Assembly: GCA_964373045.1 (NCBI GenBank)
Contig: CAYJSI010000001.1
Coordinates: 31,650 to 95,649 of the forward strand
Length of the DNA: 64,000 nt
Source: an uncultured bacterium
GTDB taxonomy: Bacteria > Omnitrophota > Omnitrophia > Omnitrophales > Aquincolibacteriaceae
Direction: 5' to 3'
Shown: piece after piece, positions 13,412 to 62,036 of the stretch
How positions within the stretch are numbered: position 1 is the first letter of the stretch
Layout of the letters: every line of letters starts with the position of its first letter
Notes under the pieces: generated by a model
What the model saw: only the letters and a program-made list of their open reading frames with translations
What the model was told of the DNA's origin: nothing
Database searches by the model: none
Program-made: the position numbers and the translations under genes

Positions 13412-13420
13412 GGCGCATCC

Positions 13421-23837: not shown

Positions 23838-23845
23838 TTTCAACC

Positions 23846-28118: not shown

Positions 28119-28130
28119 CCCTCCAATTCC

Positions 28131-30967: not shown

Positions 30968-32131
30968 ATGAAGATCATTCCCTACAGTCGCCAAACTATT
31001 CTCGCGCAGGACATCCGGGCCGTTTCACAAACCTTGCGCGCGGGCTGGATCACCCAGGGCCCCAAAATTTCCGAGTTTGAAAGCGCTATCGCGCTCTATT
31101 GCGGGGCCAAATATGCCGTGGCTGTCGCGAATGGAACCGCCGCGCTTCACTTGGCCTGTTTAGCCGTCGGATTAGGCAAGGGAGACGAAGCCGTTACGAC
31201 TCCGATCTCTTTTCTTGCAACTTCAAACGCCGTAATCTATGCGGGAGCGACGCCTGTATTTGCGGATATCGATTACGACACCATCAATATCGATCCTGAA
31301 AAAATCCGGACTCAAATCACGGCGAGGACAAAAGTCATCTTGCCGGTTGATTTTGCAGGGCTTCCGGCCCCCATGAAAGAAATTAAAAAATTGGCCTCAC
31401 GACACGGCCTGGCGGTCATTGAAGACGCCTCTCACGCCCTAGGGGCCCGGTATGACCGGACCGCAAAAGTGGGGTCGTGCCGGTATTCCGATATGACGAC
31501 GTTTAGTTTTCATCCCGTAAAACATATCACGACAGGGGAGGGCGGGTGCATCACCACCAACAGCCGCGTCCTTTATGAGAAGCTGAAGGCCCTTCGAAGC
31601 CACGGCGTTTATCGCAACAGCGGCGTGCAAAAAAAACTGGGACCCTGGTACTACGAAATGAAAGAGCTTGGGATGAATTATCGACTCACCGACTTCCAGG
31701 CCGCCTTGGGGATGTCGCAGCTGAGACGTCTCGAGCAGTTCATTGAGCGCCGGGACCTGATTTGTAAAAGATATGACGAGGCCTTCCGCGATCTGAAAAA
31801 AGTGCTAAAAATTCCGACGCAGAAAATCCTGCAGGGAAGTCACGTCCGGCATTTGTATTTACTCCGTTTAGCGGCAGAGCGGCCCGCCCCTTTACGGCGC
31901 CGGCTCTTTGATTATTTGCGGGCTAACCGTATCCAACCGCAAGTGCACTACATCCCTATTTACCGCCAACCGTATTACCGGCGTTTCTTTCAAAATAAGA
32001 AAGTGCGCTGTCCTCAGGCGGACCGTTATTATGATGAAGTGCTCAGCCTTCCTCTCTATCCTGATATGAAAGAGCATGAAATCCGTCACACGATCAATAC
32101 CGTAAAAAGATTTTTCGGCTCATTTTTATGA
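30968..32131 (+). CDS. pseC: UDP-4-keto-6-deoxy-HexNAc C4 aminotransferase (DegT/DnrJ/EryC1 family), PseC-like
   Basis: IIPYSRQTI...GPKISEFE...SFHPVKHITTGEGG (catalytic Lys motif typical of PseC). Confidence 0.65.
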   Translation: MKIIPYSRQTILAQDIRAVSQTLRAGWITQGPKISEFESAIALYCGAKYAVAVANGTAALHLACLAVGLGKGDEAVTTPISFLATSNAVIYAGATPVFADIDYDTINIDPEKIRTQITARTKVILPVDFAGLPAPMKEIKKLASRHGLAVIEDASHALGARYDRTAKVGSCRYSDMTTFSFHPVKHITTGEGGCITTNSRVLYEKLKALRSHGVYRNSGVQKKLGPWYYEMKELGMNYRLTDFQAALGMSQLRRLEQFIERRDLICKRYDEAFRDLKKVLKIPTQKILQGSHVRHLYLLRLAAERPAPLRRRLFDYLRANRIQPQVHYIPIYRQPYYRRFFQNKKVRCPQADRYYDEVLSLPLYPDMKEHEIRHTINTVKRFFGSFL

Positions 32132-33168
32132 TTAAACGTGTTTTGATTAGGGCCGATGCCCATAGCCGGGTCGGGTACGGTCATCTCATGCGTTCAATCG
32201 CTTTGGCTCAGGCCTTGAGCAGGGAAGGAGTCGCGGTCAGCTTCTGTACCGCCACTTCCGAGGATTCCCTGTGTCGTTATTTACAAGCACAAGCCTTCCC
32301 GACGCACTTTTTAACTCTCTCCGAGAAAGAATTAGGCTCCGACCGGGATCTGGAACAGATGCAAAAATGGATCGCCTCGCCGCCGGATTGGGTGGTGTTA
32401 GACAACGAATATTTTGCAACATCATACCAAACGCTAGTTCGCGAGACTGGGGCACGTCTACTTGTGTTGGATGATCACAATCGACGAGATTTTGATGCCG
32501 ATCTCATCGTCAACCATTCTCTTCATGCGGAAACTCTGGGATATAAAAAAGGGGGCGGGTGTCGGCGTCTTTTGGGACCTCGTTATGCCTTAATTCGCCA
32601 GGAGCTTCTCGATTTTCCACAAACTGAAAACAAATGCCTACGGCACGTGCTCGTCACGTTAGGGGGAAGTCCTCAGGAGGAAATGTATAAAAAAATTCTC
32701 ACTGCTTTATCGCAAATCAAAACCCACGAACTCCAAATACGGCTATTAGCGGGGTCGTCTCAGCGATCGGTTATTCAAAGCTTAACGGCCAAATTTCACT
32801 CTCATGAGATCGAGCTTTGCGAGACAAGTTTCGACTTGGCATCACTCTATGATTGGGCCGGTTTAGCAGTTTGCGCAGCAGGTGGCACTTGTCTTGAGCT
32901 ATGTTTTTTTGGCGTGACAGGACTTGTTGGAGCGTTGGAGTCTTGTCAGCTACCCGTTACTGAATCCCTGGCTACAGCGGGCATATTTCAGTCGATCGGA
33001 GATTACAGGGCAGCAAAACCGGATGATTTAGCTCACGCGATAAGTCTACTCCTAAAATCTCCCTCAGAGGAAAATGTTAGATGCACAAAAATCGGACGCC
33101 TTATAGACGGAGGGGGGGCGAATCGTATTTTAGATGTAATAAAAATGATTACTAATGACATCCTATAA
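32128..33168 (+). CDS. pseG: UDP-2,4-diacetamido-2,4,6-trideoxy-beta-L-altropyranose hydrolase (PseG-like, GT-B fold)
   Basis: N-terminal RADAHSRVGYGHLMRSIALAQAL matches the PseG signature R.D....G.GH..R...LA. Overlaps pseC by 4 nt. Confidence 0.55.
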   Translation: MIKRVLIRADAHSRVGYGHLMRSIALAQALSREGVAVSFCTATSEDSLCRYLQAQAFPTHFLTLSEKELGSDRDLEQMQKWIASPPDWVVLDNEYFATSYQTLVRETGARLLVLDDHNRRDFDADLIVNHSLHAETLGYKKGGGCRRLLGPRYALIRQELLDFPQTENKCLRHVLVTLGGSPQEEMYKKILTALSQIKTHELQIRLLAGSSQRSVIQSLTAKFHSHEIELCETSFDLASLYDWAGLAVCAAGGTCLELCFFGVTGLVGALESCQLPVTESLATAGIFQSIGDYRAAKPDDLAHAISLLLKSPSEENVRCTKIGRLIDGGGANRILDVIKMITNDIL

Positions 33169-33184
33169 CTAGTAAGAATAGTTA

Positions 33185-33213
33185 TTGACACTAAATAACC
33201 ATCATGCTAAAGT
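33185..33213 (+). promoter_or_regulatory. Sigma70-like promoter TTGACA-17 nt-TAAAGT
   Basis: Seen in the 66-nt gap after pseG, 22 nt upstream of the HTH ORF. Confidence 0.35.
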
Positions 33214-33234
33214 TACACCTCCCAAATCAACAAA

Positions 33235-33522
33235 TTGGATAACCGAGGCCCTATGGAAATCAATGAAAATGAGGTTTATACGACTGCAGAAATGCGGCAA
33301 ATCTTGAAGATTAGCCAGAGCACGGCGATGCGAATGCTTAAAACCGGTCTTATTCGTGCCGCGAAAGTGGGAAAGCAATACCGGATCATGGGAAAAGAAC
33401 TTTTGCGCCTTGTTTCACCTAAACTCGAAGACGAAGTGGGCAAAATTTACAACAAGGGACGGAGCTGGGTTCATGAGGGGGTCGGTCAAAACCCTAAATC
33501 GGTAGCGCAAAATGAGCTTTAA
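33235..33522 (+). CDS. Helix-turn-helix DNA-binding protein, excisionase/MerR-like family
   Basis: YTTAEMRQILKISQSTAMRMLKTGLIRAAKVGKQYRI matches the excisionase-family HTH pattern. It carries a C-terminal extension and overlaps the pseB start by 11 nt. Confidence 0.45.
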   Translation: MDNRGPMEINENEVYTTAEMRQILKISQSTAMRMLKTGLIRAAKVGKQYRIMGKELLRLVSPKLEDEVGKIYNKGRSWVHEGVGQNPKSVAQNEL

Positions 33523-34582
33523 GGAATTATTTAAAGGTAAGACCGTCTTAATCACCGGCGGTACCGGATCTTTCGGAAAAAAATTCACGCGAAAAGTCTT
33601 GCAAGAATGCCACCCTAGGCGTTTGATCATTTTTAGCCGGGACGAATTCAAGCAATTTGAATTGTCCCAAACTATCAGCCCGAAGGACCACGACACCATC
33701 CGCTATTTTGTCGGCGATGTTCGCGATAAAGAGCGCCTTTATCGTGCTTTTCATAAGGTGGATTACGTAATTCACGCCGCCGCCTTGAAGCAAGTTCCCG
33801 CCTGCGAATACAATCCCTTTGAAGCTGTAAAAACCAACATTCTTGGAGCTCAAAATGTCATCGATGCCGCTATTGATCAAGGTGTGAAAAAGGTCCTTGC
33901 CTTAAGTACGGATAAAGCGGCCAATCCTATCAACCTTTACGGTGCGACAAAATTATGCTCCGACAAACTTTTTGTTGCAGGTAACTCATATTCCGGCGCG
34001 GACAACTGTTGTTTTGCCGTAGTGCGGTACGGCAATGTCATCGGCAGTCGCGGCAGCGTTATTCCTTCTTTTCTCGAGCAGCGTAAAACAGGTGTGTTAT
34101 CAATCACAGACCCTCAAATGACTCGCTTTTGGATCACGTTGGATTACGCTGTTGATTTCGTACTTTCTTGCTTGGAATCCATGGTCGGCGGGGAGCTTTT
34201 TATCCCAAAAATTCCAAGCATGAATATCATGGACCTTGTGAAAGTTATTGCACCTAAATGTGCCACGAAAATCATAGGCATTCGGCCCGGGGAAAAGCTT
34301 CACGAAGTTTTGCTGCCTCAAAATGAAGCCCGAAAAACCTTAGAACTGGAAACTCATTATATTGTCCAGCCTGATTTTGAGTTTTGGGGAAAGCGGTTTA
34401 TCAAAAACAGTGGAAAACCAGTCGCGCATGACTTTGAATATAACTCGCAAACGAACCCATACTTTCTCGCCGCTGATGAGATGCGCAAAATTATCGTCGA
34501 ACAAATGGAAGGATTCGGCGTGCTTGATGAAGCGATTGAAAAAAGATATAAAAAAGATAAAGCGAAAATGAGGGTTTGCTGA
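33512..34582 (+). CDS. pseB: UDP-N-acetylglucosamine 4,6-dehydratase (inverting) PseB/FlaA1
   Basis: Near-identical signature blocks to PseB: KTVLITGGTGSFGK, FVGDVRDKERL, HAAALKQVP, EYNPFEAVKTNILGAQNVIDAA, LSTDKAANPINLYGATKLCSDKLFVAGN. Confidence 0.8.
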   Translation: MSFKELFKGKTVLITGGTGSFGKKFTRKVLQECHPRRLIIFSRDEFKQFELSQTISPKDHDTIRYFVGDVRDKERLYRAFHKVDYVIHAAALKQVPACEYNPFEAVKTNILGAQNVIDAAIDQGVKKVLALSTDKAANPINLYGATKLCSDKLFVAGNSYSGADNCCFAVVRYGNVIGSRGSVIPSFLEQRKTGVLSITDPQMTRFWITLDYAVDFVLSCLESMVGGELFIPKIPSMNIMDLVKVIAPKCATKIIGIRPGEKLHEVLLPQNEARKTLELETHYIVQPDFEFWGKRFIKNSGKPVAHDFEYNSQTNPYFLAADEMRKIIVEQMEGFGVLDEAIEKRYKKDKAKMRVC

Positions 34583-38863: not shown

Positions 38864-40204
38864 ATGAACATGTTAGAACTCTTAAATAAAATTTATATGC
38901 TACGTCTTGCACCTTCTTCACCTGATACGACCCTCGGCAATAAGATATTAAAAAATGAATTGCCATTTCGTACGCACGAATTTGAACCGGATCAGGAATG
39001 GAACGGATGGGTGGTTCCAAAATCGTGGAGTGTAAAGAAGGCATCAATTAGGAAAAACGGTAAACTTATCTATGATGGAATGGCTCACCCCCTTGGAGTC
39101 ATTGGGTACTCGCAATCTTTCAGCGGAACTATTAGCCTTGAGGAGCTTCAATCTCACCTTTTTTCAGATACCTCTCGCCCGGAAGCCATCCTTTATCACT
39201 GCGCCTTGTATTACCGTATGATGCTCAAACAATGGGGTTTTTGCATCCCTCATAAGCTTCGCGAGAGGCTGGAGAACGGGAAGTATGAAGTTGAGCTTGT
39301 CACGTCTTTCATAAATGCTCCAATGCAAGTGCTCGATTTTACTTTGCCGGGTGAGACAGAAAACACGCTGGTCTTGAACGCGCACAACTGCCATGCTGCG
39401 CAAGCCAACGACGGCACCAGCGGGATTGTCGTGGGAGTCGAATTAATAAAGCGTTTGATGCAGAAAAAGAATCGTCGACTCAGTTACAAGCTTGTCATTG
39501 CACCGGAGCATTTGGGGACCGTTTTTTATTTGTCGTGCCTTCCTGATGAGGAAGCGGCTAACCTTAAATACTGTATTTTTTTAGAAATGCTTGGCTCTAA
39601 AGGACCTTTTGCTTTACAGGAAACGTTTACAGGCGCTAGCTTGCTTGACAGGGCAAGTCATCACGTGTTGCAGCATTCGTTTCCGGATTATTTTTCCGAT
39701 AAATTCCGTAAGATTGTCGGCAATGATGAAACCGTTTGGGAGGCGCCCGGTTTGGAGATTCCAACGATATCCTTATCTCGCTTTCCCTATAACGAATACC
39801 ATACAAATTTCGATAATCATGAAATTATTCTTGAGTCTAAACTCGAAGAGGCCGTAACGGCCGGCCTTGACGTGATAAATATTCTGGAAACCAACACGTA
39901 CCTCAAACGGCGCTTCAAAGGTCTCGTGGCCCTTTCTAACCCTAAATACGATTTGTATATGCACACGCGGGATCCTGCCGCAACACCGAATGTAACCTCA
40001 ACGCAAAAGAAATGGAATTACCTCATGGATTGCCTACCGCGCTGGTTTGATGGAAAAACTTCAATTCTAGATATCGCGGAAAAGCACGATCTGCCTTATC
40101 GCCAGGTCTATGACTATCTTAAACGGTTTGAACAAAAAGAACTGGTTGAGTTTTGTCCACTAGAGCAGGCGGCGTTTTCCGCATCGTTGCCGGAGTCCAA
40201 CTAA
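38864..40204 (+). CDS. Hypothetical protein with a peptidase-like (M28/DUF4910-type) domain
   Basis: 446 aa. HNCHAAQANDGTSGIVVGVELIKRL is reminiscent of an aminopeptidase-like fold. Assignment is weak. Confidence 0.25.
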   Translation: MNMLELLNKIYMLRLAPSSPDTTLGNKILKNELPFRTHEFEPDQEWNGWVVPKSWSVKKASIRKNGKLIYDGMAHPLGVIGYSQSFSGTISLEELQSHLFSDTSRPEAILYHCALYYRMMLKQWGFCIPHKLRERLENGKYEVELVTSFINAPMQVLDFTLPGETENTLVLNAHNCHAAQANDGTSGIVVGVELIKRLMQKKNRRLSYKLVIAPEHLGTVFYLSCLPDEEAANLKYCIFLEMLGSKGPFALQETFTGASLLDRASHHVLQHSFPDYFSDKFRKIVGNDETVWEAPGLEIPTISLSRFPYNEYHTNFDNHEIILESKLEEAVTAGLDVINILETNTYLKRRFKGLVALSNPKYDLYMHTRDPAATPNVTSTQKKWNYLMDCLPRWFDGKTSILDIAEKHDLPYRQVYDYLKRFEQKELVEFCPLEQAAFSASLPESN

Positions 40205-40210: not shown

Positions 40211-41134
40211 ATGAAGGATTATTTGCAGGCAGATCTGATAAGAGCCCTTCAAGAAATTGGGCTTAAGAAAGGTGATGTCGCGCTGGTATCCACAGAGCTT
40301 TTTGCTATGGGGAAACTAAAAACGGCCCAGACTAAAGAAGAGCTCTGTCGTCTTATTTGTGAAGCCATTTTGAGTATCATCGGCGCAGAGGGCACCTTGG
40401 CGGTCAATGCCTATACGACTTATACCCAGCGATACGGCCTTCCGTTTGACCGGGAGCGGTCCAGGCCAACAACTGGTGTTTTCAGCGAATATATTTTGTT
40501 TCATCCTGACAGCATCCGAAGCACGCATCCGATCCACTCCGTCGCGGCACTTGGAAAATACAAAGAAAAAATATGCTTAGATACGAGCCCGTCGAATTAT
40601 GGTTTTGATTCGCCGGTTGACCGAATGTTAAATTTGAATTGTCAAATTCTCCGTTTGGGTGTTGATTTCGGTGACAATGTCTTTACTCATTACGTCGAGG
40701 GACTTTACGGGCTGCCATATTTTTATAACAAACTACTTGATGTGGACGTGGTTGTTGATGGAAAAAAAACGGACCGACTTTTTTTTGCGACCGTCCGCCA
40801 CCTGAATTTGACGATGGAAGATAATTACGAGCCAATTAAGGCTGCCTTGGTCAAAGCGAAACGGGTTTATTCTGCCGCCGTAGGCGATGGGTGGGTACAT
40901 CGAATAGACGCAAAAGAATATTGCCGGACATTAATTGAACTGCTTAACCAAAATCCATGGGCACTTGTAAAAAATCCACCCAACTTTAAAAAGGGGGAAA
41001 TCCCATTTGATGGGGCCACTAAAGGACGCGATGGGGTTGAAACGAGGGCCAATTTTTTGTTTGAGGAATTGCGCGGCACCAAGAGCCAAAATCAAGAGCC
41101 GATCTCCCTTCCTAAGTCCGCAGTCGCGAATTAA
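40211..41134 (+). CDS. AAC(3)-family (Antibiotic_NAT) N-acetyltransferase-like protein
   Basis: N-terminal DLIRALQEIGLKKGDVALVSTELFAMG matches the AAC(3) signature (L..LGV..GD.LLVHSSL...G). Confidence 0.5.
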   Translation: MKDYLQADLIRALQEIGLKKGDVALVSTELFAMGKLKTAQTKEELCRLICEAILSIIGAEGTLAVNAYTTYTQRYGLPFDRERSRPTTGVFSEYILFHPDSIRSTHPIHSVAALGKYKEKICLDTSPSNYGFDSPVDRMLNLNCQILRLGVDFGDNVFTHYVEGLYGLPYFYNKLLDVDVVVDGKKTDRLFFATVRHLNLTMEDNYEPIKAALVKAKRVYSAAVGDGWVHRIDAKEYCRTLIELLNQNPWALVKNPPNFKKGEIPFDGATKGRDGVETRANFLFEELRGTKSQNQEPISLPKSAVAN

Positions 41135-42103: not shown

Positions 42104-42834
42104 TTTTGGGGATCTTGCAAGCCAGAATGAATTCACGGCGGTTTCCCGGGAAGGTTCTGAAGCCGATTCTGGGTGTGCCTATGATTCTCCGCCAAATTGA
42201 GCGTCTAAAGCAGTCAAAAAAAATGGACCACCTCTTGGTCGCGACCAGTCGAGAGGTTTCAGACGATCCGATTGCTGAAGTTTGCCGGTATAACCGAATC
42301 GAATGTTTTCGCGGCCATTTAGAAGATGTCCTAGACCGTTTTTATCAGGCCGCCGCTTTGCACCAGCCTGAGCATGTTATTCGGTTTACGGGTGATTGCC
42401 CACTTGCTGATGCTTACGTTATTGACAATCTCGTAAACTTTTACTTAGATGGAAATTTTGATTATGCAAGCAATGCTCTTGAACCCACCTATCCCGACGG
42501 CCTTGATGCTGAAATCTTTCGATTTTCGTCCTTAGCTCAGGCCTGGAAAGAAGCTGTCGCATCTTTTGATCGTGAACATGTAACACCTTATTTTTACTGT
42601 CATCCCGAAAGATTTAAAATAGGTAGTTTAAAAGGAGCTAGAGATTTATCCAGCATGCGCTGGACCGTCGATGAAGAGGATGATTTTAAATTTGTAACCT
42701 GTATTTTCGACGGTCTCTATCACCATAAGCCGACATTCGAAATGGCCGATATTTTAGAACATCTTAAACATCATCCCGAGCTCCAAGCCATCAATGCGTC
42801 GCATACCCGCAATGAGGGGGCACATCCATGCTAA
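42100..42834 (+). CDS. pseF: SpsF/FlmC-type (COG1861) cytidylyltransferase; candidate CMP-pseudaminic acid synthetase
   Basis: ILGILQARMNSRRFPGKVL is the SpsF/FlmC motif. The ATG at 42100 overlaps the upstream stop (ATGA). Confidence 0.45.
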   Translation: MILGILQARMNSRRFPGKVLKPILGVPMILRQIERLKQSKKMDHLLVATSREVSDDPIAEVCRYNRIECFRGHLEDVLDRFYQAAALHQPEHVIRFTGDCPLADAYVIDNLVNFYLDGNFDYASNALEPTYPDGLDAEIFRFSSLAQAWKEAVASFDREHVTPYFYCHPERFKIGSLKGARDLSSMRWTVDEEDDFKFVTCIFDGLYHHKPTFEMADILEHLKHHPELQAINASHTRNEGAHPC

Positions 42835-44620: not shown

Positions 44621-45678
44621 CGGGATTTATCGAAATAAGCGGAAGAAAGATCGGTCCGGGATTTCCTGCCTATGTGATAGCAGAACTTTCCGCCAATCAT
44701 CATCAGCAGCTAAGAGTTGCCACCCGGCTTATTCACGAAGCCAAAAATGCAGGCGCAGATGCCGTTAAAATTCAGACCTATACAGCAGATTCGCTCACTT
44801 TGGATTGCCGCAATCGTTATTTTAAAATCGGCGGCGGAACGCTTTGGGATGGCCATACGCTTTATGACCTTTATAAAGATGCCTACACACCTTGGGAGTG
44901 GCACCCTAAACTCAAAAAGGTAGCTGAGAAGTTAGGGCTCGGTTTTTTTTCGTCACCTTTTGATTTCGTTGCCATTGACTTTCTCGAAAATCTAAAAATG
45001 CCGGCTTATAAAGTTGCTTCATTTGAGATTGTCGATCTCCCGCTTATTCAAAAAATGGCAAGGACCGGTAAGCCTATAATTCTTTCTACGGGCATGGCAT
45101 CCTTCAAGGAAATTGCAGACGCCGTTAAGGCTGCCCGCGAAGTCGGCGCCAAGCAAATCGCACTCCTGAAGTGTTGTAGCGCTTATCCCGCGCCTTCGAG
45201 TGAGATGAATATCAAGACAATAACCCATATGCAAAAAGCGTTCAAAGTCCCGGTGGGCATTTCCGATCATACCTTGGGCATCGAAGTTCCCGTCTCAGCG
45301 GTTGCGCTTGGCGCCTGCATTGTTGAGAAACACTTTATTTTGTCCCGCAAAGAGAAAGGACCGGACAACGCTTTTTCCCTTGAACCCGTAGAATTTGCAG
45401 CCATGGTAAAGGGAATCCGAATTGCTGAAAAGGCGGTTGGGAAAGTTCAGTACGGACCCACAGCGCACGAAAAGTCGAGTTTGCCATTCCGCAGATCTTT
45501 ATTTGTGGTGGAATCAGTCACGAAGGGGGAGGTTCTAACGGCGGCAAATGTCCGCTCAATTCGGCCGGCACACGGCCTTCCCCCAAAATATCTTCCCGAG
45601 ATTGTAGGACGCCGGGCACAGAGAAATATTAAACGAGGGACTCCTTTAAAATGGGACCACTTAGCTCCGAAAAGATAA
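44617..45678 (+). CDS. pseI: Pseudaminic acid synthase (NeuB family, with C-terminal SAF domain)
   Basis: IAELSANHHQQLRVATRLIHEAKNAGADAVKIQTY and ILSTGMAS are NeuB-family motifs. A C-terminal antifreeze-like SAF domain is present (IRPAHGL). Confidence 0.75.
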   Translation: MTGFIEISGRKIGPGFPAYVIAELSANHHQQLRVATRLIHEAKNAGADAVKIQTYTADSLTLDCRNRYFKIGGGTLWDGHTLYDLYKDAYTPWEWHPKLKKVAEKLGLGFFSSPFDFVAIDFLENLKMPAYKVASFEIVDLPLIQKMARTGKPIILSTGMASFKEIADAVKAAREVGAKQIALLKCCSAYPAPSSEMNIKTITHMQKAFKVPVGISDHTLGIEVPVSAVALGACIVEKHFILSRKEKGPDNAFSLEPVEFAAMVKGIRIAEKAVGKVQYGPTAHEKSSLPFRRSLFVVESVTKGEVLTAANVRSIRPAHGLPPKYLPEIVGRRAQRNIKRGTPLKWDHLAPKR

Positions 45679-48449
45679 GCTCTCACAAACTGACGAGCGA
45701 TCCAATTTCCTGTCTCCTAGAGATTCCGAAAAGGAATAAAAACCGAGTTTTTTTAGTCGATGGGATTGAAAATCGGGAGTGGACTTTTGGGCAAATCCAC
45801 GAACAGGCCTGCGCCATATCCGAATGGCTGCATCGGCACGGGTTAAAAAAAGGTGATCGCCTTGCGGCCGTGTTACCAAATGCGTCCTCCACTGTGCGGC
45901 TTTATTTTGGCTGTCTTTACGCCGGAATTGTAATTGTTCCACTCAACCCCATCTCATCTCCAAAGGAAATGGAATTTATTATCCGGGACAGTTCTGCAAA
46001 AATGATCGTACTTTCTAATCGTGAAATAAACAAAATTAAAGACGTGAATTTGCCAAAGGATATTCAAATAATCACCTTAGGAGGTTTAGACGAGGAATCG
46101 GATTGTGAAGTCCTCAATCTGAATCGTTTGAGTTTAAGCGCACAAGATTTTTCTTTTAAAAATGTTACGGCCAACGACGATTTAATTATTATTTATACTT
46201 CAGGAACGACCGCCGATCCAAAGGGAGTTATCCACCGCATCGCGGACTTGGTCCATAATGGAAAAGCATTTGGAGAGCTGTTCGGTATCGGTCACGAGAA
46301 TCGTTTTTATAATAATCTTGCCCTCACTTATCTTGGTGGTTATTACAATTTGCTTTTACTGCCTTATGTCTGTGAATCAAGCATTGTCCTCTCCGAAACC
46401 TTTAATCCCGCATCTGTGATTAATTTTTGGGGTCCAATTATGCAGCACCAAGTGAATACTCTCTGGCTTGTCCCAAGCCTCATGGCGATATTACTAGAAA
46501 TGGACAGGTCTAACCAAGGCGAAAGATACTGCAACGAGAAAGTAAAGCTCATCTTCGCTGGCATGGCACCTCTGCCGCCGGCAATTCGTATCAAATTTGA
46601 GGAACGATACCGTCAGCCCGTATATGAAAATTATGGTCTATCAGAAACATTGTTTATTTCAACCAATCAACCCGGCATCCCAATTCAGGATGGAAGTGTT
46701 GGAACCATACTTTCGGGAGTTCAGATTTCAATTAGAGATAAAGATGAGAATGAGCTAAGTAACGAAGAGGAAGGTGAAATCTGGGTTAAAACGCCTTATC
46801 TGATGCGGGGATACGTTGAGCGGCTTAAACAAAACAAGAGCTGGGAATTATCGACGCAAGATTGGTTCCCGACCGGGGATTTGGGAGTGCTTTCAATTGA
46901 CAAAATGCTTTCAATTACGGGAAGAAAAAAAGATCTTATTATCCGGGGAGGAATCAACATTAGTCCTGCGAGCATCGAAAATACACTCTATCTTCATCCT
47001 GCCGTTATGGAGTGTGCCGTGGTCGGTGTTCCCCACAAATTCTCCGGAGAAGAAGTTGTTGCCGTGGTGCGTTTAGTTGAGGGCTCTAATTCCGGAGAAG
47101 TTCGTAAAGAACTCGTTGTGCTATGCCAGAAAAATCTTGCACGAATTAAGCAACCGAGCCAGTTTGTCGAGGTTATTGAATTTTCACATACGACTTCGGG
47201 AAAAATTCAAAAAAGAAAAATTAGAGCATGGCTGATGCAAAGAAACGAGGTGCTTATCACACCGCCGACGGTTATTCCAGCCTCAAAATCCGAACCACAT
47301 TTCATGCCTTCAAAAATCGTGGAAGCCAGCGTTGAGGCAATGTCGATTAAGTTTAATACTATGGTTTATGAAATGCAGCGGGAAAAAATTGATGTAACCG
47401 TTCTTTCGCTAGGAGAGGCCTTTTTTGATATTCCGCTTTTCGACTTTAGTAGTCTGCCGTTCCCAAATATCTATCATTATTCGCATCCGCGTGGCATTCC
47501 AGAACTCAGGGAAACCCTAGCGAAATATTTTCAGGACGAATATGACGTTACTTTTAATCCAAAAAATGAAATTCTTATCACTGCTGGATCAAAAATTGCC
47601 ATTCATATGACGCTGATGACGGTAATTAATCCGGGGGACGAGGTTCTTTATTATGAACCGGCCTGGGTAAGCTATCCAGAGCAGATTAAGTTATGCTATG
47701 GCGTCCCAGTTCCAATCCCTTACTATGAAAAGATCTCAAATTTCGAAAACTATATCACCAATCGGACTCGAATGCTGATCATCAACAATCCAACAAACCC
47801 AACGGGGCGCGTTCTTAACCTTGACGAACTCGGCTATCTCCATACTCTCGCCAAGAAATATAATTTATTTGTACTTTCCGACGAAGCCTATAGTGATTTT
47901 CTTTTAAACGACGGAGAATTCATATCGTTGGCAAACCTAGACATCGAAAAGCAGCATACATTGATTGTAAATTCTCTTTCTAAAAATTTTGGGATGTCCG
48001 GATGGCGCCTGGGATATGTCATTGCAAATCCGGCATTAATTGAGCAAATTCTAAAAATTAATCAGCATTTAGTTACCTGCCCGCCTACCATCCTAGAGTA
48101 CTATGCTACTAAGTATTTTGATGAAATTATCCGGGTCACAAAGCCGCAGATTCGAAATTTGGTGACTCGTCGCGCGCAGATCCAAGAATTTATGGATGAA
48201 TTAGGGCTTGCCTATATGTCGGGAACCGCAACGTTTTACCTCTTTGTTTCGATTGATCCCTCCAAGCTTTCTTCAGTGGATTTTTGTATGCAATTTCTGG
48301 AACGTTATCACGTCTGCGTTGTTCCGGGAATCGGATATGGAAAAAGCTGCGATCGCTTTGTCCGGGTTTCGGTGGGAACGGAAAGCCTAAGCCGCCTCAA
48401 AAGAGCGCTCAAGCTTCTAAAAGATTTTATTAAGGAGAGCTCGAAGTGA
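45651..48449 (+). CDS. Fusion protein: ANL adenylation domain (AMP-dependent ligase, DltA/acyl-CoA synthetase-like) plus class I/II PLP aminotransferase
   Basis: The N-terminal half carries IIYTSGTTADPKGVIH (A3), YGLSET (A5), TGDLG (A7), GRKKDLIIRGGINISPASIE (A8) and SGKIQKRKI (A10). The C-terminal half carries ITAGSKIAIH, NNPTNPTGRVL and NSLSKNFGMSGWRLGYV (catalytic Lys), typical of fold-type I aminotransferases. Single continuous 932-aa frame. Confidence 0.6.
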   Translation: MGPLSSEKISSHKLTSDPISCLLEIPKRNKNRVFLVDGIENREWTFGQIHEQACAISEWLHRHGLKKGDRLAAVLPNASSTVRLYFGCLYAGIVIVPLNPISSPKEMEFIIRDSSAKMIVLSNREINKIKDVNLPKDIQIITLGGLDEESDCEVLNLNRLSLSAQDFSFKNVTANDDLIIIYTSGTTADPKGVIHRIADLVHNGKAFGELFGIGHENRFYNNLALTYLGGYYNLLLLPYVCESSIVLSETFNPASVINFWGPIMQHQVNTLWLVPSLMAILLEMDRSNQGERYCNEKVKLIFAGMAPLPPAIRIKFEERYRQPVYENYGLSETLFISTNQPGIPIQDGSVGTILSGVQISIRDKDENELSNEEEGEIWVKTPYLMRGYVERLKQNKSWELSTQDWFPTGDLGVLSIDKMLSITGRKKDLIIRGGINISPASIENTLYLHPAVMECAVVGVPHKFSGEEVVAVVRLVEGSNSGEVRKELVVLCQKNLARIKQPSQFVEVIEFSHTTSGKIQKRKIRAWLMQRNEVLITPPTVIPASKSEPHFMPSKIVEASVEAMSIKFNTMVYEMQREKIDVTVLSLGEAFFDIPLFDFSSLPFPNIYHYSHPRGIPELRETLAKYFQDEYDVTFNPKNEILITAGSKIAIHMTLMTVINPGDEVLYYEPAWVSYPEQIKLCYGVPVPIPYYEKISNFENYITNRTRMLIINNPTNPTGRVLNLDELGYLHTLAKKYNLFVLSDEAYSDFLLNDGEFISLANLDIEKQHTLIVNSLSKNFGMSGWRLGYVIANPALIEQILKINQHLVTCPPTILEYYATKYFDEIIRVTKPQIRNLVTRRAQIQEFMDELGLAYMSGTATFYLFVSIDPSKLSSVDFCMQFLERYHVCVVPGIGYGKSCDRFVRVSVGTESLSRLKRALKLLKDFIKESSK

Positions 48450-49417
48450 GAACTTTGTCATTAAATTCAAAAACCCGCAAAGGCGTCGACACCATTTTAT
48501 TTAACTGCGGGCAGTTAAAGAGGGGGGAAACTTGCTGCGTTGTGTCCGACAAAAAAACGGCTCACTTGGGCGATGCCCTAGTCGAGGCCTCAAATGCCGA
48601 AGGAGTGACAGCGAAACATTTTGTCATCGAGCCTTTTTCAATTCACGGGCAAGAACCACCATCCGAAGTAGCGCGCGAAATGCGGGAAAGTGATCTTGTC
48701 ATTGGTCTGACCAAATATTCGATGGCGCATACTTCAGCTCGTTATGAGGCCTGTCGCAACGGTGCCAGATATTTGAGCTTACCGGATTATTCGGAAAAGG
48801 TCCTCGGGCACCCGTCGCTTCAGGTTGATTATGAAAGAGTGGGAGAAGGGGGAAGAAAGCTTGTGGCTAAATTATCGAGGGGGAAAAGGGTTCATATCCA
48901 AACAAAAGCAGGAACGGACATTAGATTAAATTATGAGGGCAGGCCTTGGAATTTTTGCCCCGGTTATGTCAACACCGAGAAGTTAATTCTTGGTTCGCCT
49001 CCGGATATTGAAATTAACGTCGCGCCGCTTGAAGATCAATCGGAAGGAATTGTGGTTGTGGATGGATCCATCCCCGTCCCCGGGCTTGGCAAACTAGATT
49101 CTTCAGTCACCTTACTCGTACAAAAGGGGAAAATCGTAGAATTTAAAGCCAAGCGCCGCTATAAACAATCGCTGGAAAAACTATTTAGACCGCACGCCAA
49201 AAAAGCCCGTGTCCTCGCAGAGTTCGGTATCGGTTTGAATCCTAAGGCAAAGCTCTGCGGTATTCTTTTGATTGATGAAGGCTGTTTGGGCACCTTTCAT
49301 TTTGGTTTTGGTTCGAACGCCACTATAGGAGGTAAAAACGCGGTAAAGTTTCATGTGGACTTTGTATTTTATGCCAGCTCATTTTGGCTCGATGGAAGGC
49401 TAATGAAAGTTTCCTGA
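48446..49417 (+). CDS. M29 (aminopeptidase T/AmpS)-fold protein, short form
   Basis: HIQTKAGTDIRLNYEG, EGCLGTFHFGFGSN and HVDFVF...DG align with the C-terminal metal-binding blocks of AmpS-like proteins. Confidence 0.3.
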   Translation: MRTLSLNSKTRKGVDTILFNCGQLKRGETCCVVSDKKTAHLGDALVEASNAEGVTAKHFVIEPFSIHGQEPPSEVAREMRESDLVIGLTKYSMAHTSARYEACRNGARYLSLPDYSEKVLGHPSLQVDYERVGEGGRKLVAKLSRGKRVHIQTKAGTDIRLNYEGRPWNFCPGYVNTEKLILGSPPDIEINVAPLEDQSEGIVVVDGSIPVPGLGKLDSSVTLLVQKGKIVEFKAKRRYKQSLEKLFRPHAKKARVLAEFGIGLNPKAKLCGILLIDEGCLGTFHFGFGSNATIGGKNAVKFHVDFVFYASSFWLDGRLMKVS

Positions 49418-50616
49418 TGACGACAGCATTAAAAGCGCTCGCGTATAAAATTCCTGAGGATGTCATCTTCCATATTTCCAAAGAGCGTCTTATCGCCACC
49501 AACGTTTTTGCCCGGACCCATGTAGAGATCAATGACGATCTTGTCAGGTTGACAAGATTTCTGTTCAAAATGAGGTCTTTGGATGACATCCTTGAATTTA
49601 TTCAAAATTGCAATCTGAAACTTGCGGCAACGGACCGTACTATCTTCTCAAACAAAAAGGGGCTTTTGGCGGATCCGACCAATCTTGAAATAAGCCAGAC
49701 GTCCCAACCGCAAACCCAGTGGGAAGAGGTCCTTAAATTGTTTTTGAGCCGGTTCATTTTAATTCAGGACGAAAAAAAGTACCGTGGCTATTTTAAAGCC
49801 AAAGACAATGTCTTTGATAATGACCATTTCGGAAATTTTCATCAGCAACTCGGGTTTAATCTTCGCCTCTTAGAAAGAGTCGATCCTGATTTGTGGTGGG
49901 TGGAGCAAAAATACCGCCACGATGAAGACGCTCTCGGCGATAATCTTTATAAGCACATTCAGTTGTATTTTTACGAACGTTTTTTTACACCTGAAAGGAT
50001 AAGAGGTAAAAGAGTGCTTGATGTCGGATGCGGTACGGGGTTTTACTCGCGATTGCTTGCCCGGCAGGGTGCTACGGTTTTAGGCATTGATCCCAACGGA
50101 AAACATATTCAACGCGCTAAATCATTGCATACCGAAGGACTACGAGTTGAATACCGAGTCGTGGATATAGCGAGCGGTTCGGCTTTGGAAAATCTCGCAT
50201 CCGATTCCTTCGACCTAATCTTTTTCCAGGACGCATTGATGTTTTACTTCGTTCCCTACGGCAACCAGCCTTTGACAACGTGTCAAAAAGTGCTTTCTGA
50301 ATTGAAGCGATGCCTCAAAAAAAACGGCAGTTTTTGGGTGATTGAGCCCCACGGTATGTTCTGGCTTTCACCCTGGTTCGGAAGCGATGAATACCCCTTT
50401 AGTGTCATCACCGAATATGCGCACAAAACTTATGGCGTCACTCCGACGCTGGAGCAATTATCAGCTGCTTTTGAAGATGCAGGACTTTTAATTAAGCGGA
50501 TCCATGAGCTTGAAGTTTCTGAAAAAGCTCAAAAAGATGACGTGCGCGCCTTTTCGTTCAGCCGGGAATTTCCGCAGTGGTGGGCTTTTGAATTAGTGAA
50601 AGGTGGAGAATCATGA
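49417..50616 (+). CDS. Class I SAM-dependent methyltransferase with an N-terminal accessory domain
   Basis: VLDVGCGTGFYSRLL motif I, LGIDPN, FDLIFFQDALMF. The ATG at 49417 overlaps the upstream stop. Confidence 0.55.
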   Translation: MTTALKALAYKIPEDVIFHISKERLIATNVFARTHVEINDDLVRLTRFLFKMRSLDDILEFIQNCNLKLAATDRTIFSNKKGLLADPTNLEISQTSQPQTQWEEVLKLFLSRFILIQDEKKYRGYFKAKDNVFDNDHFGNFHQQLGFNLRLLERVDPDLWWVEQKYRHDEDALGDNLYKHIQLYFYERFFTPERIRGKRVLDVGCGTGFYSRLLARQGATVLGIDPNGKHIQRAKSLHTEGLRVEYRVVDIASGSALENLASDSFDLIFFQDALMFYFVPYGNQPLTTCQKVLSELKRCLKKNGSFWVIEPHGMFWLSPWFGSDEYPFSVITEYAHKTYGVTPTLEQLSAAFEDAGLLIKRIHELEVSEKAQKDDVRAFSFSREFPQWWAFELVKGGES

Positions 50617-50870
50617 AAGAATTGATCACTAAACAAATTATGAATTATTTAAATGATTCCGGATTGTCGGTCAATGCCTTGCGACCACATGACATGCTAT
50701 TTGAGACGGGTGCCCTTGACTCATTTAGCATGGTTGAACTCATCACATTTCTGGAGAATAAGTATTCAATGCGATTTAGCGCCGATGATTTGAAAAGAGA
50801 ATATTTGGAATCGGTCGACAAAATCGTTGAACTTATCTCTAACAAAATGGAACTAAAGCGACATGGGTAA
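50613..50870 (+). CDS. DltC-like (D-alanyl-type) carrier protein
   Basis: 85 aa. ETGALDSFSMVELITFLENKY closely resembles DltC EEGLLDSFGTVELLLAIENRF (phosphopantetheine Ser). Confidence 0.5.
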   Translation: MKELITKQIMNYLNDSGLSVNALRPHDMLFETGALDSFSMVELITFLENKYSMRFSADDLKREYLESVDKIVELISNKMELKRHG

Positions 50871-55798: not shown

Positions 55799-55800
55799 AA

Positions 55801-59003: not shown

Positions 59004-59005
59004 CC

Positions 59006-60121: not shown

Positions 60122-60213
60122 CTCAAAAAAATGACGGCGCCCACACAATCGCCCATCACGAACGAAAGAATCGGGGCTTTTAAAACTTTTAAAGCAAAAT
60201 TCAAGACGATAAC

Positions 60214-61911: not shown

Positions 61912-62036
61912 TTGCATCATGTCTTTAAGCCAAACAACCCTTTGCTTGAATTATTTTTCGCGTTATCGATGAGGCCGCTTGCGCCTGACATCACAGTGTG
62001 CGTTTTGTCTTTGCATGGAGATTCCAAAACTTGGAA

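What the first reader, a model, noticed from the sequence alone, without database searches (positions are those of the whole stretch)
45651..48449. Single 932-aa ORF fusing a complete adenylation (ANL) domain to a fold-type I aminotransferase
All core ANL motifs (A3, A5, A7, A8, A10) occur in the first roughly 530 residues. The remaining roughly 400 residues carry the class I/II aminotransferase motifs, including the SxSKxxGxxGxRxG lysine block. I do not recall this adenylation-aminotransferase architecture from characterised pathways. The gene sits 4 nt after pseI and upstream of a DltC-like carrier protein. A plausible role is to activate a 2-oxo or amino acid, load it on the carrier protein and transaminate it to make an aminoacyl decoration.
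Basis: seen in the sequence. Interest (0 to 1): 0.8.

Follow-up and report, generated by a model that had tools for sequence, protein, structure and literature searches.

The report
Adenylating enzyme fused to aminotransferase
The 932-residue gene is a real, widely conserved but uncharacterised two-enzyme fusion that, with a neighbouring peptidase-like metalloenzyme, a small carrier protein and an acyltransferase, most likely builds an amino-acid-type side group and attaches it to a sialic-acid-like surface sugar.

Summary
ORF 45651-48449 (+) encodes one 932-aa protein with a complete ANL adenylation domain, a roughly 20-residue disordered linker and a complete fold-type I aminotransferase. 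It is not an assembly artefact. More than 100 independent protein clusters from bacteria and a thaumarchaeon share this length and architecture at 49-66% identity.

The fusion is part of a conserved cassette. An M29/NicX-fold metalloenzyme gene followed it in every fused locus with enough flanking sequence. An ~85-aa carrier protein with a conserved Ser was found in all fused loci with enough flank. An amino-sugar N-acyltransferase sits nearby: AAC(3)-like here, LpxD-like in other lineages.

Other genomes fuse the same parts differently: ANL-AT-M29-like, M29-like-ANL, ANL-aldolase, and AT fused to an ATP-grasp ligase in carrier-free versions.

Best reading: the AT makes a probably non-standard amino acid from a 2-oxo acid. 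The ANL loads it on the carrier. The acyltransferase puts it on an amino group of the pseudaminic-acid pathway sugar encoded around it.

The acyl group, the order of steps and the role of the M29-like enzyme remain inferred. I found no characterised member. I rate it a new variant of a known kind, of moderate interest.

The parts
45651..48449 (+). Bifunctional ANL-aminotransferase gene (932 aa)
   Evidence: ORF listed and translated. Pfam domains. About 120 orthologous clusters carry both halves.
45729..47204 (+). ANL adenylation domain. The N-subdomain is residues 27-388 and the C-subdomain is residues 442-518. The A10 Lys518 codon is at 47202-47204.
   Evidence: Pfam hits. Invariant motif residues. 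It aligns with oxalate-CoA ligase 5IE0 over residues 16-527. NCBIfam acyl-CoA ligase models all score below their cut-offs.
47247..47303 (+). Inter-domain linker, residues 533-551
   Evidence: AlphaFold pLDDT is below 50 for residues 533-551, and pTM is 0.59 for the whole chain. These columns are not conserved in alignment A1.
47367..48437 (+). Fold-type I (class I) aminotransferase domain. The PLP Lys778 codon is at 47982-47984.
   Evidence: Pfam Aminotran_1_2. Full-length alignment with 1DJU and 1GD9, E about 1e-59. K778, D744, Y747, N716, R786 and R905 are invariant.
48446..49417 (+). M29/NicX-fold metalloenzyme (323 aa). Its start overlaps the stop of the fusion gene by 4 nt.
   Evidence: Pfam M29, E 1.3e-9. 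Homologues carry PF26233 NicX. The model has pLDDT 95.6; Foldseek gives NicX TM 0.81 and M29 aminopeptidases TM 0.59-0.71. It lies immediately downstream of the fusion in all fused loci with enough flank. It is fused to ANL-AT in P0243 and to ANL in P0276.
49384..50616 (+). SAM-dependent methyltransferase (410 aa; MT domain about residues 200-326)
   Evidence: Pfam and NCBIfam hits. Full-length orthologues sit in the cassette in L001, L002, L005, L009, L012, L020 and L031.
50613..50870 (+). Carrier protein (85 aa; Ser in the LDSF motif)
   Evidence: PP-binding E 6.7e-4. ACP/DltC-type NCBIfam hits fall below their cut-offs. The family was found by jackhmmer in all fused and split loci with enough flank, and in about 36 Acidobacteriaceae ANL loci. 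The Ser is conserved in the alignment.
40211..41134 (+). AAC(3)-like N-acyltransferase, the candidate acyl-carrier:amino-sugar transferase
   Evidence: Pfam Antibiotic_NAT, E 3e-27. Orthologues lie directly after the carrier gene in L001, L002, L003, L007, L009, L020 and L021.
38864..40204 (+). DUF4910/DUF2172 M28-like protein with a wHTH domain, a frequent partner of the AAC(3)-like gene
   Evidence: Pfam hits. It co-occurs in L005, L007, L009, L021 and L076. Its family has a published neighbourhood link to modified-sugar synthesis (PMC4000134).
44617..45678 (+). PseI/NeuB nonulosonic acid synthase. Its end overlaps the start of the fusion gene.
   Evidence: Pfam NeuB, E 8.5e-92, plus SAF. 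The arrangement is syntenic in L001 and L002.
30968..34582 (+). pseC, pseG and pseB, the core of the pseudaminic acid pathway
   Evidence: NCBIfam equivalogs above cut-off: PseC 474 against 423, PseG 168 against 154, PseB 501 against 408.

Best explanation
The ORF is a genuine bifunctional enzyme. It is the hub of a conserved, carrier-protein-dependent cassette that decorates an amino sugar with an amino-acid-derived acyl group. Here the sugar is an intermediate of the pseudaminic acid pathway encoded around it.

Proposed steps:
1. The class I aminotransferase domain converts a 2-oxo acid into the corresponding L-alpha-amino acid, using Glu or Asp as donor. The 2-oxo acid is probably a non-standard one. 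In some genomes it appears to be custom-made by a pyruvate aldolase, and it may be methylated by the cassette methyltransferase.
2. The ANL domain adenylates a carboxylate of that acid and thioesterifies it onto the phosphopantetheine arm of the 85-aa carrier protein.
3. The M29/NicX-fold metalloenzyme tailors or edits the unit. It keeps what I recall to be an aminopeptidase-type metal-ligand set.
4. The methyltransferase methylates the unit.
5. The AAC(3)-like N-acyltransferase (an LpxD-like transferase in other lineages) moves the acyl group from the carrier to a free amine of the sugar.

What is shown: the domains, their catalytic residues, the gene linkages and the alternative fusions. What is inferred: every chemical step, the order of the steps and the identity of the acid.
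For: **The fusion is real and constrained.** About 120 clusters at 90% identity carry both halves, and both halves have invariant catalytic residues.

**Gene linkage.**
- The M29-like gene follows the fusion in all fused loci with enough flank.
- The carrier family is present in all fused and split loci with enough flank, with a conserved Ser.
- A PPTase is fused to GNAT-AT in L025, which supports a real phosphopantetheinylated carrier.
- The carrier gene is directly followed by an AAC(3)-like N-acyltransferase gene in 7 loci.
- In another set of loci a deacetylase-like gene and an LpxD-like LbH transferase sit immediately upstream of the fusion.

**Alternative fusions of the same parts.**
- ANL-AT-M29-like triple fusion P0243: its C-terminal part is 53% identical to the window M29-like protein, E 2e-109.
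- M29-like-ANL fusion P0276.
- ANL-RraA-like aldolase fusions (L020, L031, P0249) and an ANL-cyclase fusion (P0255).

**Carrier-free cassettes.** The same AT subfamily (52-60% identical) stands next to an ATP-grasp amino-acid-ligase-like gene in 18 of 21 loci. It is fused to one in P0252 and P0290. So the AT has been joined independently to two non-homologous carboxylate-activating ligases.

**Context.** There is a full pse pathway in the window.

**Precedent.** N-linked amino acids, and D-alanyl on legionaminic acid, are known decorations (PMC10609480).
Against: - No member of the family has been characterised, so every chemical step is inferred.
- The ANL's nearest relatives are acyl-CoA ligases for oxalate, malonate and o-succinylbenzoate.
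- The A4 position that is Asp in alpha-amino-acid A domains is Tyr227. That argues against simple activation of an alpha-carboxylate next to a free amine.
- The window and most fused loci contain no aldolase. It is therefore unclear why a dedicated AT is needed, unless the methyltransferase or an unlinked gene makes an unusual 2-oxo acid.
- The role of the M29-like enzyme is undefined.
- AlphaFold gives no fixed orientation between the two domains (pTM 0.59), so there is no structural evidence for channelling.
Confidence: 0.55

Rival explanations
1. Distal-carboxyl, on-carrier route (as in butirosin and fluvirucin). The ANL activates the side-chain carboxylate of a dicarboxylic 2-oxo acid or amino acid, such as 2-oxoglutarate or an aldolase-made 4-hydroxy-4-methyl-2-oxoglutarate, and tethers it to the carrier. 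The fused AT then transaminates the free alpha-keto-acid end while it is tethered. The methyltransferase N-methylates it. The product is a gamma-glutamyl-type N-acyl group, such as the N-methyl-glutam-4-yl group known on Clostridium botulinum legionaminic acid.
For: - The ANL's closest solved relatives all use dicarboxylates: oxalate-, malonate- and OSB-CoA ligases.
- There is a Tyr instead of an Asp at the A4 position.
- ANL-RraA-like aldolase fusions exist. The RraA-like aldolases I recall make dicarboxylic 2-oxo acids.
- Literature precedent: Glu or Asp is loaded through its side-chain carboxyl on an ACP and then processed by a PLP enzyme (PMC11350588).
- Leg5(N-methyl-glutam-4-yl)7Ac is a known structure.
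- A methyltransferase is present in the nonulosonic-acid-type cassettes.
Against: - The carrier-free ATP-grasp cassettes use the same AT subfamily, so the AT can work without a carrier.
- I know of no class I aminotransferase that acts on a carrier-tethered substrate.
- An aminopeptidase-type M29 site fits an alpha-aminoacyl carbonyl better than a free alpha-amino acid head group.
- Whether C. botulinum has the cassette could not be checked.
Confidence: 0.2
2. Lactam (5-oxoprolyl) route. The AT makes a substituted glutamate. The M29-fold enzyme closes the alpha-amine onto the gamma-carboxyl to give a substituted 5-oxoproline. The ANL then activates the remaining alpha-carboxylate, which no longer has a free amine next to it, and the unit is transferred to the sugar.
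For: - Methylated and hydroxylated 5-oxoprolyl groups are known N-acyl substituents of amino sugars (PMC10609480). I found no biosynthetic route for them.
- It would explain the lack of an Asp at A4.
- It would explain the need for an AT plus a methyltransferase and/or an aldolase.
- It would explain why three different metal-hydrolase or cyclase folds occupy the same place in variant cassettes: M29-like, Amidohydro_2 and PF04199 cyclase.
- Glutaminyl cyclase having an aminopeptidase fold is a precedent (my own knowledge).
Against: - There is no direct evidence.
- I know of no M29-fold enzyme that cyclises a substrate.
- I know of no 5-oxoprolyl derivative of pseudaminic acid.
- The window has no aldolase.
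Confidence: 0.12
3. The ANL is an ordinary acyl-CoA ligase, the acyltransferase uses the acyl-CoA, and the small carrier protein serves another enzyme, for example the FabH-like synthase at 28131-29138.
For: - The best NCBIfam and PDB hits are CoA ligases.
- AAC(3) enzymes normally use acyl-CoA (established knowledge).
- A FabH-like gene is present in the window.
Against: - All CoA-ligase models score below their curated cut-offs.
- The carrier gene travels with the ANL in every locus with enough flank, across phyla. That includes loci whose scanned 10-kb flanks show no FabH-like gene, and CPR genomes where a PPTase is fused into the cassette.
Confidence: 0.08
4. The PLP domain is not a transaminase. 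It would carry out other fold-type I chemistry, such as decarboxylation, beta/gamma-elimination or racemisation, on the acyl unit.
For: The class I/II fold hosts lyases, decarboxylases and cyclodehydratases. A GntC model scores 220 bits, below its cut-off of 415.
Against: All transaminase signature residues are invariant, including the alpha-carboxylate Arg905 and Asn716/Tyr747. The closest structures are broad-specificity Asp/aromatic aminotransferases.
Confidence: 0.04
5. The fusion is an artefact of a sequencing or assembly frameshift that joined two genes.
For: None was found. The idea rests only on the architecture being unfamiliar.
Against: The same continuous architecture occurs in about 120 clusters from NCBI, JGI, ENA and Logan assemblies, and in genomes of at least eight phylum-level lineages. 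Linker length is conserved.
Confidence: 0.01

Closest known systems
Butirosin AHBA side-chain pathway (BtrI carrier, BtrJ ligase, BtrK PLP enzyme, BtrH acyltransferase, BtrG deprotection), with the related fluvirucin FlvN/L/O and closthioamide CtaD/E/F systems
   Same: An amino-acid-derived acyl unit is activated with ATP, carried on a small stand-alone carrier protein and modified by a PLP enzyme. In butirosin it is then transferred to an amine of an amino sugar, with a final hydrolase or cyclotransferase step (PMC11350588; the BtrH and BtrG roles are from my own knowledge).
   Different: The PLP enzyme here is a class I aminotransferase, not a decarboxylase. It is fused to the ligase, and the ligase is ANL-type (BtrJ is an ATP-grasp enzyme, as I recall). 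The hydrolase-like partner has an M29/NicX fold. The acceptor is a surface-glycan sugar, not an antibiotic. None of the proteins was tested for homology to the Btr proteins.
Dlt D-alanylation system (DltA/DltC)
   Same: An ANL enzyme is paired with a ~80-aa dedicated carrier protein for decorating a cell-surface polymer. The carrier gives weak DltC-model hits.
   Different: - The carrier scores below the DltC cut-offs (34.6 against 68 bits).
- The ANL lacks the amino-acid-pocket Asp; that position is Tyr227.
- No DltB (MBOAT) or DltD was found among the genes scanned between 27 and 57 kb.
- An AT and an M29-like enzyme are integral parts of this cassette.
Flagellin-glycosylation loci of Campylobacter jejuni (Cj1295-Cj1308) and Clostridium acetobutylicum (CA_C2186-2199)
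   Same: Pse/Leg-type loci that contain DUF4910, an AAC(3)-like amino-sugar N-acetyltransferase, an acyl carrier protein and methyltransferases. For C. jejuni I also recall a fabH-like gene and an 'amino acid activating' gene. The C. acetobutylicum gene table is in PMC4000134; the C. jejuni gene list is from my own knowledge.
   Different: Neither locus is reported to have an ANL-AT fusion or an M29-like gene. C. acetobutylicum has an ATP-grasp ligase instead. The functions of these genes are also largely unknown.
LpxD/LpxA acyl-ACP-dependent transferases of UDP-amino sugars
   Same: In seven related loci, a 299-aa LbH protein with the LpxD N-terminal domain sits directly upstream of the fusion, next to a deacetylase-like gene. 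That matches the 'deacetylate, then N-acylate from ACP' logic of lipid A synthesis.
   Different: The window uses an AAC(3)-like transferase instead. The acyl donor would be an amino-acid-type unit on a dedicated carrier, not a 3-hydroxy fatty acyl-AcpP.
Methyltransferase or aldolase plus aminotransferase routes to non-proteinogenic glutamates (GlmT/IlvE for 3-methylglutamate; HMG/CHA aldolase plus AT for 4-substituted 4-hydroxyglutamates such as monatin)
   Same: The logic is the same: a 2-oxo acid is modified by methylation or an aldol reaction and then transaminated. RraA-like and HMGL-like aldolases and methyltransferases are present in variant cassettes.
   Different: These precedents are from my own knowledge and were not tested by homology. 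The window itself has a methyltransferase but no aldolase.

Membership tests
ANL superfamily (adenylate-forming enzymes) | AMP-binding N- and C-subdomains with core motifs A3 (TSGTTGxPKG), A5 (YGxTE), A7 (TGD), A8 (GRxKD hinge) and A10 (catalytic Lys) | tested here: met
   Pfam PF00501 E 1.9e-67 and PF13193 E 9.9e-16. G185-K191, E332/T333, D410, R425/K427 and K518 are invariant in 37 orthologues.
NRPS/DltA-type alpha-amino-acid adenylation domains | An acidic residue (Asp235 in PheA numbering) in motif A4 that binds the substrate alpha-ammonium group | tested here: not met
   In the alignment with oxalate-CoA ligase 5IE0, the A4 motif 'LFHVHG' aligns with 'LTYLGG'. The His/Asp position is Tyr227, which is nearly invariant. 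Equating the acyl-CoA-ligase His with PheA Asp235 is from my own knowledge.
Named acyl-CoA ligase families (FadD, malonyl-CoA synthase, MenE and others) | A score above the curated NCBIfam cut-off | tested here: not met
   The best hit is NF004837 at 312 bits against a cut-off of 476. MenE TIGR01923 scores 205 against 330. All hits are below their cut-offs.
Fold-type I, class I aminotransferases (AspAT subgroup I-gamma-like) | PLP-binding Lys, Asp (ring N), Asn and Tyr (O3'), Arg (phosphate) and Arg (substrate alpha-carboxylate) | tested here: met
   K778, D744, N716, Y747, R786 and R905 are invariant. The motifs align one-to-one with 1DJU and 1GD9. Pfam PF00155 E 3.2e-60.
Aspartate aminotransferase equivalogs and other named aminotransferases | A score above the curated NCBIfam cut-off | tested here: not met
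   NF041091 scores 258.6 against 550, PRK07682 237 against 620 and GntC 220 against 415.
Carrier-protein-dependent acylation systems (ligase plus holo-carrier plus acyltransferase) | A dedicated carrier protein with a phosphopantetheine-attachment Ser, genetically linked to the ligase | tested here: met
   PP-binding hit. The carrier family is present in all loci with enough flank. The Ser is conserved. A PPTase is fused into the cassette in L025.
Carrier-protein-dependent acylation systems (ligase plus holo-carrier plus acyltransferase) | Actual thioester loading of the carrier by the ANL, and transfer of the acyl group to an amino sugar | not testable with these tools
   This needs in-vitro loading and transfer assays.
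Dlt system | DltC equivalog carrier plus DltB (MBOAT) and DltD partners | tested here: not met
   DltC models score 34.6 against 68 and 29.9 against 52 bits. No MBOAT or DltD-like domain was found among the window genes scanned.
M29 metallopeptidases / NicX family (the partner gene 48446-49417) | M29 fold with Glu/Glu/His/His/Asp metal ligands (peptidases) or a His/His/Asp iron site (NicX) | tested here: inconclusive
   The fold is met: TM 0.81 to NicX and 0.59-0.71 to AmpT, PepS and AmpS. E189, E259, H285, H303 and D305 are invariant. NicX has His at the E259 position and Leu at the H285 position. The mapping onto the peptidase ligands rests on motif spacing and recalled AmpS ligand numbers, not on a structural superposition.

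The most novel reading that the evidence does not exclude
The ANL-AT / M29-like / carrier trio may be a self-contained 'make, activate, tailor' machine. It could be the missing biosynthetic route to unusual glutamate-derived N-acyl groups on bacterial and archaeal surface sugars. Examples are the N-methyl-gamma-glutamyl group on legionaminic acid and the methylated or hydroxylated 5-oxoprolyl groups of O-antigens. Either of two steps would be unprecedented as far as I know: a class I aminotransferase acting on a carrier-tethered 2-oxoacyl unit, or an aminopeptidase-fold enzyme acting as a lactam-forming cyclase.
Probability: 0.2. Interest if true: 0.75.

Novelty: new variant of a known kind. 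Interest (0 to 1): 0.55.

Why it matters
**Biological relevance.** Nonulosonic acids and other amino sugars on flagella, S-layers, capsules and O-antigens carry many N-acyl groups. These groups determine antigenicity and phage or immune recognition. I found no reported genetic basis for most of them in the searches I ran.

**What this analysis adds.** It defines a recurrent, portable cassette found in CPR bacteria, Elusimicrobia, Proteobacteria, Myxococcota, Thermodesulfobacteriota and marine Thaumarchaeota. Its hub is the ANL-aminotransferase fusion. It has a carrier-free ATP-grasp counterpart that uses the same aminotransferase subfamily.

**Use.**
- Genome annotators gain a marker for 'aminoacyl-type sugar decoration'.
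- Biochemists gain a compact set of three to five proteins to reconstitute.
- If the acyl unit turns out to be a modified glutamate or oxoproline, it would close an open gap in O-antigen and flagellin-glycan biosynthesis.

Tried and rejected
- **Frameshift or assembly artefact.** Rejected, because the architecture is conserved in hundreds of independent assemblies.
- **Hidden carrier domain in the linker.** Rejected. The linker is about 20 disordered, unconserved residues.
- **Alpha-oxoamine synthase (AONS/SPT-like) identity for the PLP half.** Considered because ANL/ACP/AONS combinations exist. Rejected because the best hits are Asp/aromatic aminotransferases and the transaminase residues are all present.
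- **NicX-type dioxygenase function for the partner.** Judged unlikely. Two positions differ from NicX (Glu259 in place of His, and His285 in place of Leu) and match what I recall to be the peptidase ligand pattern.
- **Literature searches** for the fusion, for nonulosonic acid plus AMP-binding, and for Cj1295/Cj1307 returned nothing on this enzyme.
- **Exact look-up of the window protein's contig** found nothing on record. The source organism was not identified. The closest synteny is with a Parcubacteria genome, L001.
- **tblastn against plasmids** found only stand-alone AT orthologues (47-50% identical) on two Streptomyces plasmids. These had no stored annotation and no recognisable cassette partners, so this was not informative.
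- **Aldolase, PPTase, ATP-grasp or Amidohydro_2 homologues in the window.** A search found none.

Full report
**1. The observation**

The ORF at 45651-48449 (+) is real and encodes 932 residues. Pfam finds AMP-binding (27-388, E 1.9e-67), AMP-binding_C (442-518) and Aminotran_1_2 (606-914, E 3.2e-60).

In an alignment of 37 orthologues, all ANL core residues are invariant: A3 G185-K191, A5 E332/T333, A7 D410, A8 R425/K427 and A10 K518. So are all class I aminotransferase catalytic residues: N716, D744, Y747, the PLP lysine K778, R786 and the alpha-carboxylate arginine R905.

The C-terminal half aligns over its whole length with Pyrococcus horikoshii aromatic aminotransferase 1DJU, motif for motif. 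The N-terminal half aligns with oxalate-CoA ligase 5IE0 over residues 16-527.

An AlphaFold model gives two well-folded modules. They are joined by a disordered linker at residues 533-551, and there is no confident mutual orientation (pLDDT 84, pTM 0.59).

There is one factual slip in the finding. The ATG at 45651 overlaps the pseI stop codon (45676-45678) by 28 nt rather than lying 4 nt after it. A GAGGG motif lies 12 nt upstream of the ATG.

**2. The fusion is not an artefact**

A search of 5.8 billion proteins returned about 120 clusters (at 90% identity) that carry both halves, at 49-66% identity. About 116 of them are 908-944 aa and four are shorter fragments. They come from NCBI, JGI, ENA and Logan assemblies.

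An exhaustive HMMER scan of 1.84 billion representatives at 50% identity found about 8-10 clusters that cover both halves in one aligned stretch, with identity down to 31-37%.

Genome hits include Parcubacteria, Elusimicrobia, Victivallales, Gamma- and Alphaproteobacteria, Thermodesulfobacteriota, Myxococcaceae and the thaumarchaeon Nitrosopelagicus. The frameshift hypothesis is refuted.

**3. Context in the window**

The gene lies inside a complete pseudaminic acid locus.
- PseC, PseG and PseB score above the NCBIfam equivalog cut-offs.
- A WbuX/HisH/WbuZ acetamidino trio is present.
- A CMP-transferase, a GNAT and PseI/NeuB are present.

Downstream, with overlapping start and stop codons, come:
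- an M29-like protein (48446-49417);
- a 410-aa methyltransferase;
- the 85-aa carrier protein (50613-50870);
- a 585-aa surface-carbohydrate protein, a putative glycosyltransferase;
- a Wzx flippase.

Upstream lie a DUF4910 protein and an AAC(3)-like N-acyltransferase.

**4. The conserved cassette**

I ran tblastn and clustering over 82 related loci.

- **M29-like gene.** It follows the fusion directly in every fused locus with enough downstream sequence.
- **Carrier protein.** An iterative profile search seeded with the window's carrier found a homologue in all of these loci. It lies just after the M29-like gene or just before an AAC(3)-like gene, and the Ser of the (L/I)DS motif is conserved.
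- **Two flavours of the cassette exist:**
  - The nonulosonic-acid type includes the window and has an AAC(3)-like acyltransferase, DUF4910 and the ~400-aa methyltransferase. In seven loci the carrier gene is immediately followed by the AAC(3)-like gene.
  - A second type has, directly upstream of the fusion, a deacetylase-like gene (PIG-L or polysaccharide-deacetylase-like) and a 299-aa LpxD-like hexapeptide transferase.

Both arrangements read as 'free an amine on a sugar, then acylate it from a carrier protein'.

**5. Alternative fusions of the same parts**

The same components are split or fused differently elsewhere.
- P0243 (1224 aa) is an ANL-AT-M29-like triple fusion. Its C-terminal part is 53% identical to the window's M29-like protein, E 2e-109.
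- P0276 is M29-like-ANL.
- In L020, L031 and P0249 the ANL is fused to an RraA-like aldolase domain instead, with a separate AT and M29-like gene. L020 and L028 also have an HMGL-like aldolase.
- P0255 is ANL-PF04199 cyclase.
- L025 encodes a PPTase-GNAT-AT triple fusion next to the carrier, M29-like and ANL genes.

The most telling case is the carrier-free cassette. Stand-alone orthologues of the AT half (52-60% identical, against about 33% for housekeeping aminotransferases) lie next to other partners:
- an ATP-grasp L-amino-acid-ligase-like gene in 18 of 21 loci;
- often an Amidohydro_2 gene, a small methyltransferase, a DegT aminotransferase and a GT2.

P0252 and P0290 are AT-ATP-grasp fusions.

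So this AT subfamily has been joined independently to two non-homologous carboxylate-activating ligases. That is strong evidence that the AT and the ligase handle the same small acid. It also shows that the AT can work without a carrier.

**6. The partner enzyme**

The M29-like protein models with pLDDT 95.6. Foldseek matches are:
- NicX dioxygenase, TM 0.81;
- M29 aminopeptidases AmpT, PepS and AmpS, TM 0.59-0.71;
- the crocagin proteins CgnB and CgnE, TM 0.50-0.54.

Its invariant residues are E189 (in a PPDIE motif), E259, H285, H303 and D305. These look like the Glu/Glu/His/His/Asp set that I recall for M29 peptidases. NicX has His at the E259 position and Leu at the H285 position.

I therefore read it as a metal-dependent hydrolase or transferase-type enzyme rather than a dioxygenase. 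The ligand mapping is an inference from motif spacing and recalled ligand numbers.

**7. Mechanism**

- **Shown:** the domain content, catalytic residues, gene linkage and fusion network.
- **Inferred:**
  - the AT supplies an amino acid from a 2-oxo acid;
  - the ANL adenylates it and loads the carrier;
  - the AAC(3)-like (or LpxD-like) enzyme transfers it to a sugar amine;
  - the methyltransferase and the M29-like enzyme tailor the unit.

The need for a dedicated AT, together with aldolases or methyltransferases in variant cassettes, suggests a non-proteinogenic amino acid.

Two observations complicate the simplest version.
- The ANL's closest relatives use dicarboxylates.
- The position that is Asp in amino-acid A domains, and His in CoA ligases, is Tyr227.

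These keep two sub-models alive.
- **(a) Distal-carboxyl route.** The acid is loaded through its distal carboxyl and transaminated on the carrier, as in butirosin and fluvirucin chemistry (PMC11350588). This would give a gamma-glutamyl-type group, like the N-methyl-glutam-4-yl group on C. botulinum legionaminic acid.
- **(b) Lactam route.** The unit is cyclised to a 5-oxoproline-type acid before activation. This would match the methylated hydroxy-5-oxoprolyl groups known on O-antigen amino sugars (PMC10609480).

I cannot discriminate between these with sequence data.

**8. Comparison with known systems and verdict**

The logic resembles the butirosin side-chain pathway, Dlt D-alanylation, LpxD-type acyl-ACP transfer, and the poorly understood ACP/AAC(3)-like/DUF4910 genes of the Campylobacter and Clostridium flagellin-glycosylation loci (PMC4000134).

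It is not a member of any named family.
- All NCBIfam equivalog scores fall below their cut-offs.
- The carrier is not a DltC equivalog.
- The A-domain Asp is absent.
- No solved structure or paper covers the fusion.

I classify it as a new variant of a known kind: carrier-dependent acyl decoration of surface sugars. The family is widespread but uncharacterised, and its acyl product is unknown. Interest is moderate at 0.55. It would rise if the product proves to be one of the amino-sugar N-acyl groups whose biosynthesis is still unassigned, or if on-carrier transamination or aminopeptidase-fold cyclisation is demonstrated.

Noticed in passing
window 280-21260: The whole window is a glycan-biosynthesis island. 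It has three PMT_2-type GT-C glycosyltransferases (280-1992, 7580-9430, 14169-15731), a DUF2079 membrane protein (3015-4811), GT2 enzymes, two NAD-dependent epimerase/dehydratases and a DAO-family oxidoreductase.
   Followed up: partly
window 54227-63958: There is a second sugar pathway downstream of the flippase. It comprises a cytidylyltransferase-PfkB kinase fusion, a ThDP-dependent E1 alpha/beta pair (55801-57857), two DegT aminotransferases, a B12-binding radical SAM enzyme (60214-61911; another at 21375-23309), an NTP-transferase and a 4,6-dehydratase. This suggests a branched or C-methylated amino sugar.
   Followed up: no
window 27045-30899: A FabH-like KAS III (28131-29138, above the PRK09352 cut-off) sits with a methyltransferase (27045-28118, weak 2-ketoarginine-methyltransferase-like hit) and a GNAT-like protein just upstream of pseC. 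This may be a second acyl-decoration route that also uses a carrier protein.
   Followed up: no
window 32000-56000: GC content is 0.44-0.46 across the pse/acylation block. It is 0.49-0.51 upstream and 0.53 at 56-60 kb, which is consistent with a mosaic, horizontally exchanged glycan locus.
   Followed up: no
L034-L074 (Acidobacteriaceae / Sulfotelmatobacter genomes), around locus coordinates 8000-14000: About 36 genomes have an ANL (37-42% identical) with a carrier gene about 0.7 kb downstream. In the one locus whose neighbours were scanned (L035) the order is HMGL/DmpG-like aldolase, ANL, PF04199 'cyclase', carrier, GT1, with no aminotransferase. An ANL-cyclase fusion also exists (P0255).
   Followed up: partly
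L013, L015, L017, L024, L033, L042 and others (stand-alone AT loci): These loci share a conserved carrier-free cassette: class I AT, ATP-grasp (LAL_C2) ligase, Amidohydro_2, a small SAM methyltransferase, DegT and GT2. It is seen in Terriglobia, Dormibacteraeota, Planctomycetota, Vulcanimicrobiota, Cytophagales and other lineages, and looks like a functional analogue of the ANL/carrier cassette.
   Followed up: partly
L025 3762-6029: A candidate Peribacteria genome encodes a PPTase(ACPS)-GNAT-aminotransferase triple fusion (755 aa) next to the carrier, M29-like and ANL genes. The cassette thus brings its own phosphopantetheinyl transferase.
   Followed up: partly
window 42828-44120: A class III aminotransferase close to the 'glutamate-1-semialdehyde aminomutase' model NF004856 (443 bits against a cut-off of 486) is syntenic with the CMP-transferase and an aldo-keto reductase in L002, and is present at the contig start in L001. 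Its role in the pse locus is unknown.
   Followed up: no
window 23328-24882: Three consecutive ORFs of 169, 175 and 170 aa have no Pfam hit, and the 587-aa ORF on the minus strand at 24896-26659 also has none.
   Followed up: no
L083 (Streptomyces sp. NBC_01483 plasmid NZ_CP109439.1, 970613-971746) and NZ_CP108509.1: Stand-alone orthologues of the AT half (47-50% identical) occur on large linear Streptomyces plasmids. tblastn found no recognisable ANL, M29-like, carrier or ATP-grasp partners within 9 kb of the copy examined (L083).
   Followed up: partly
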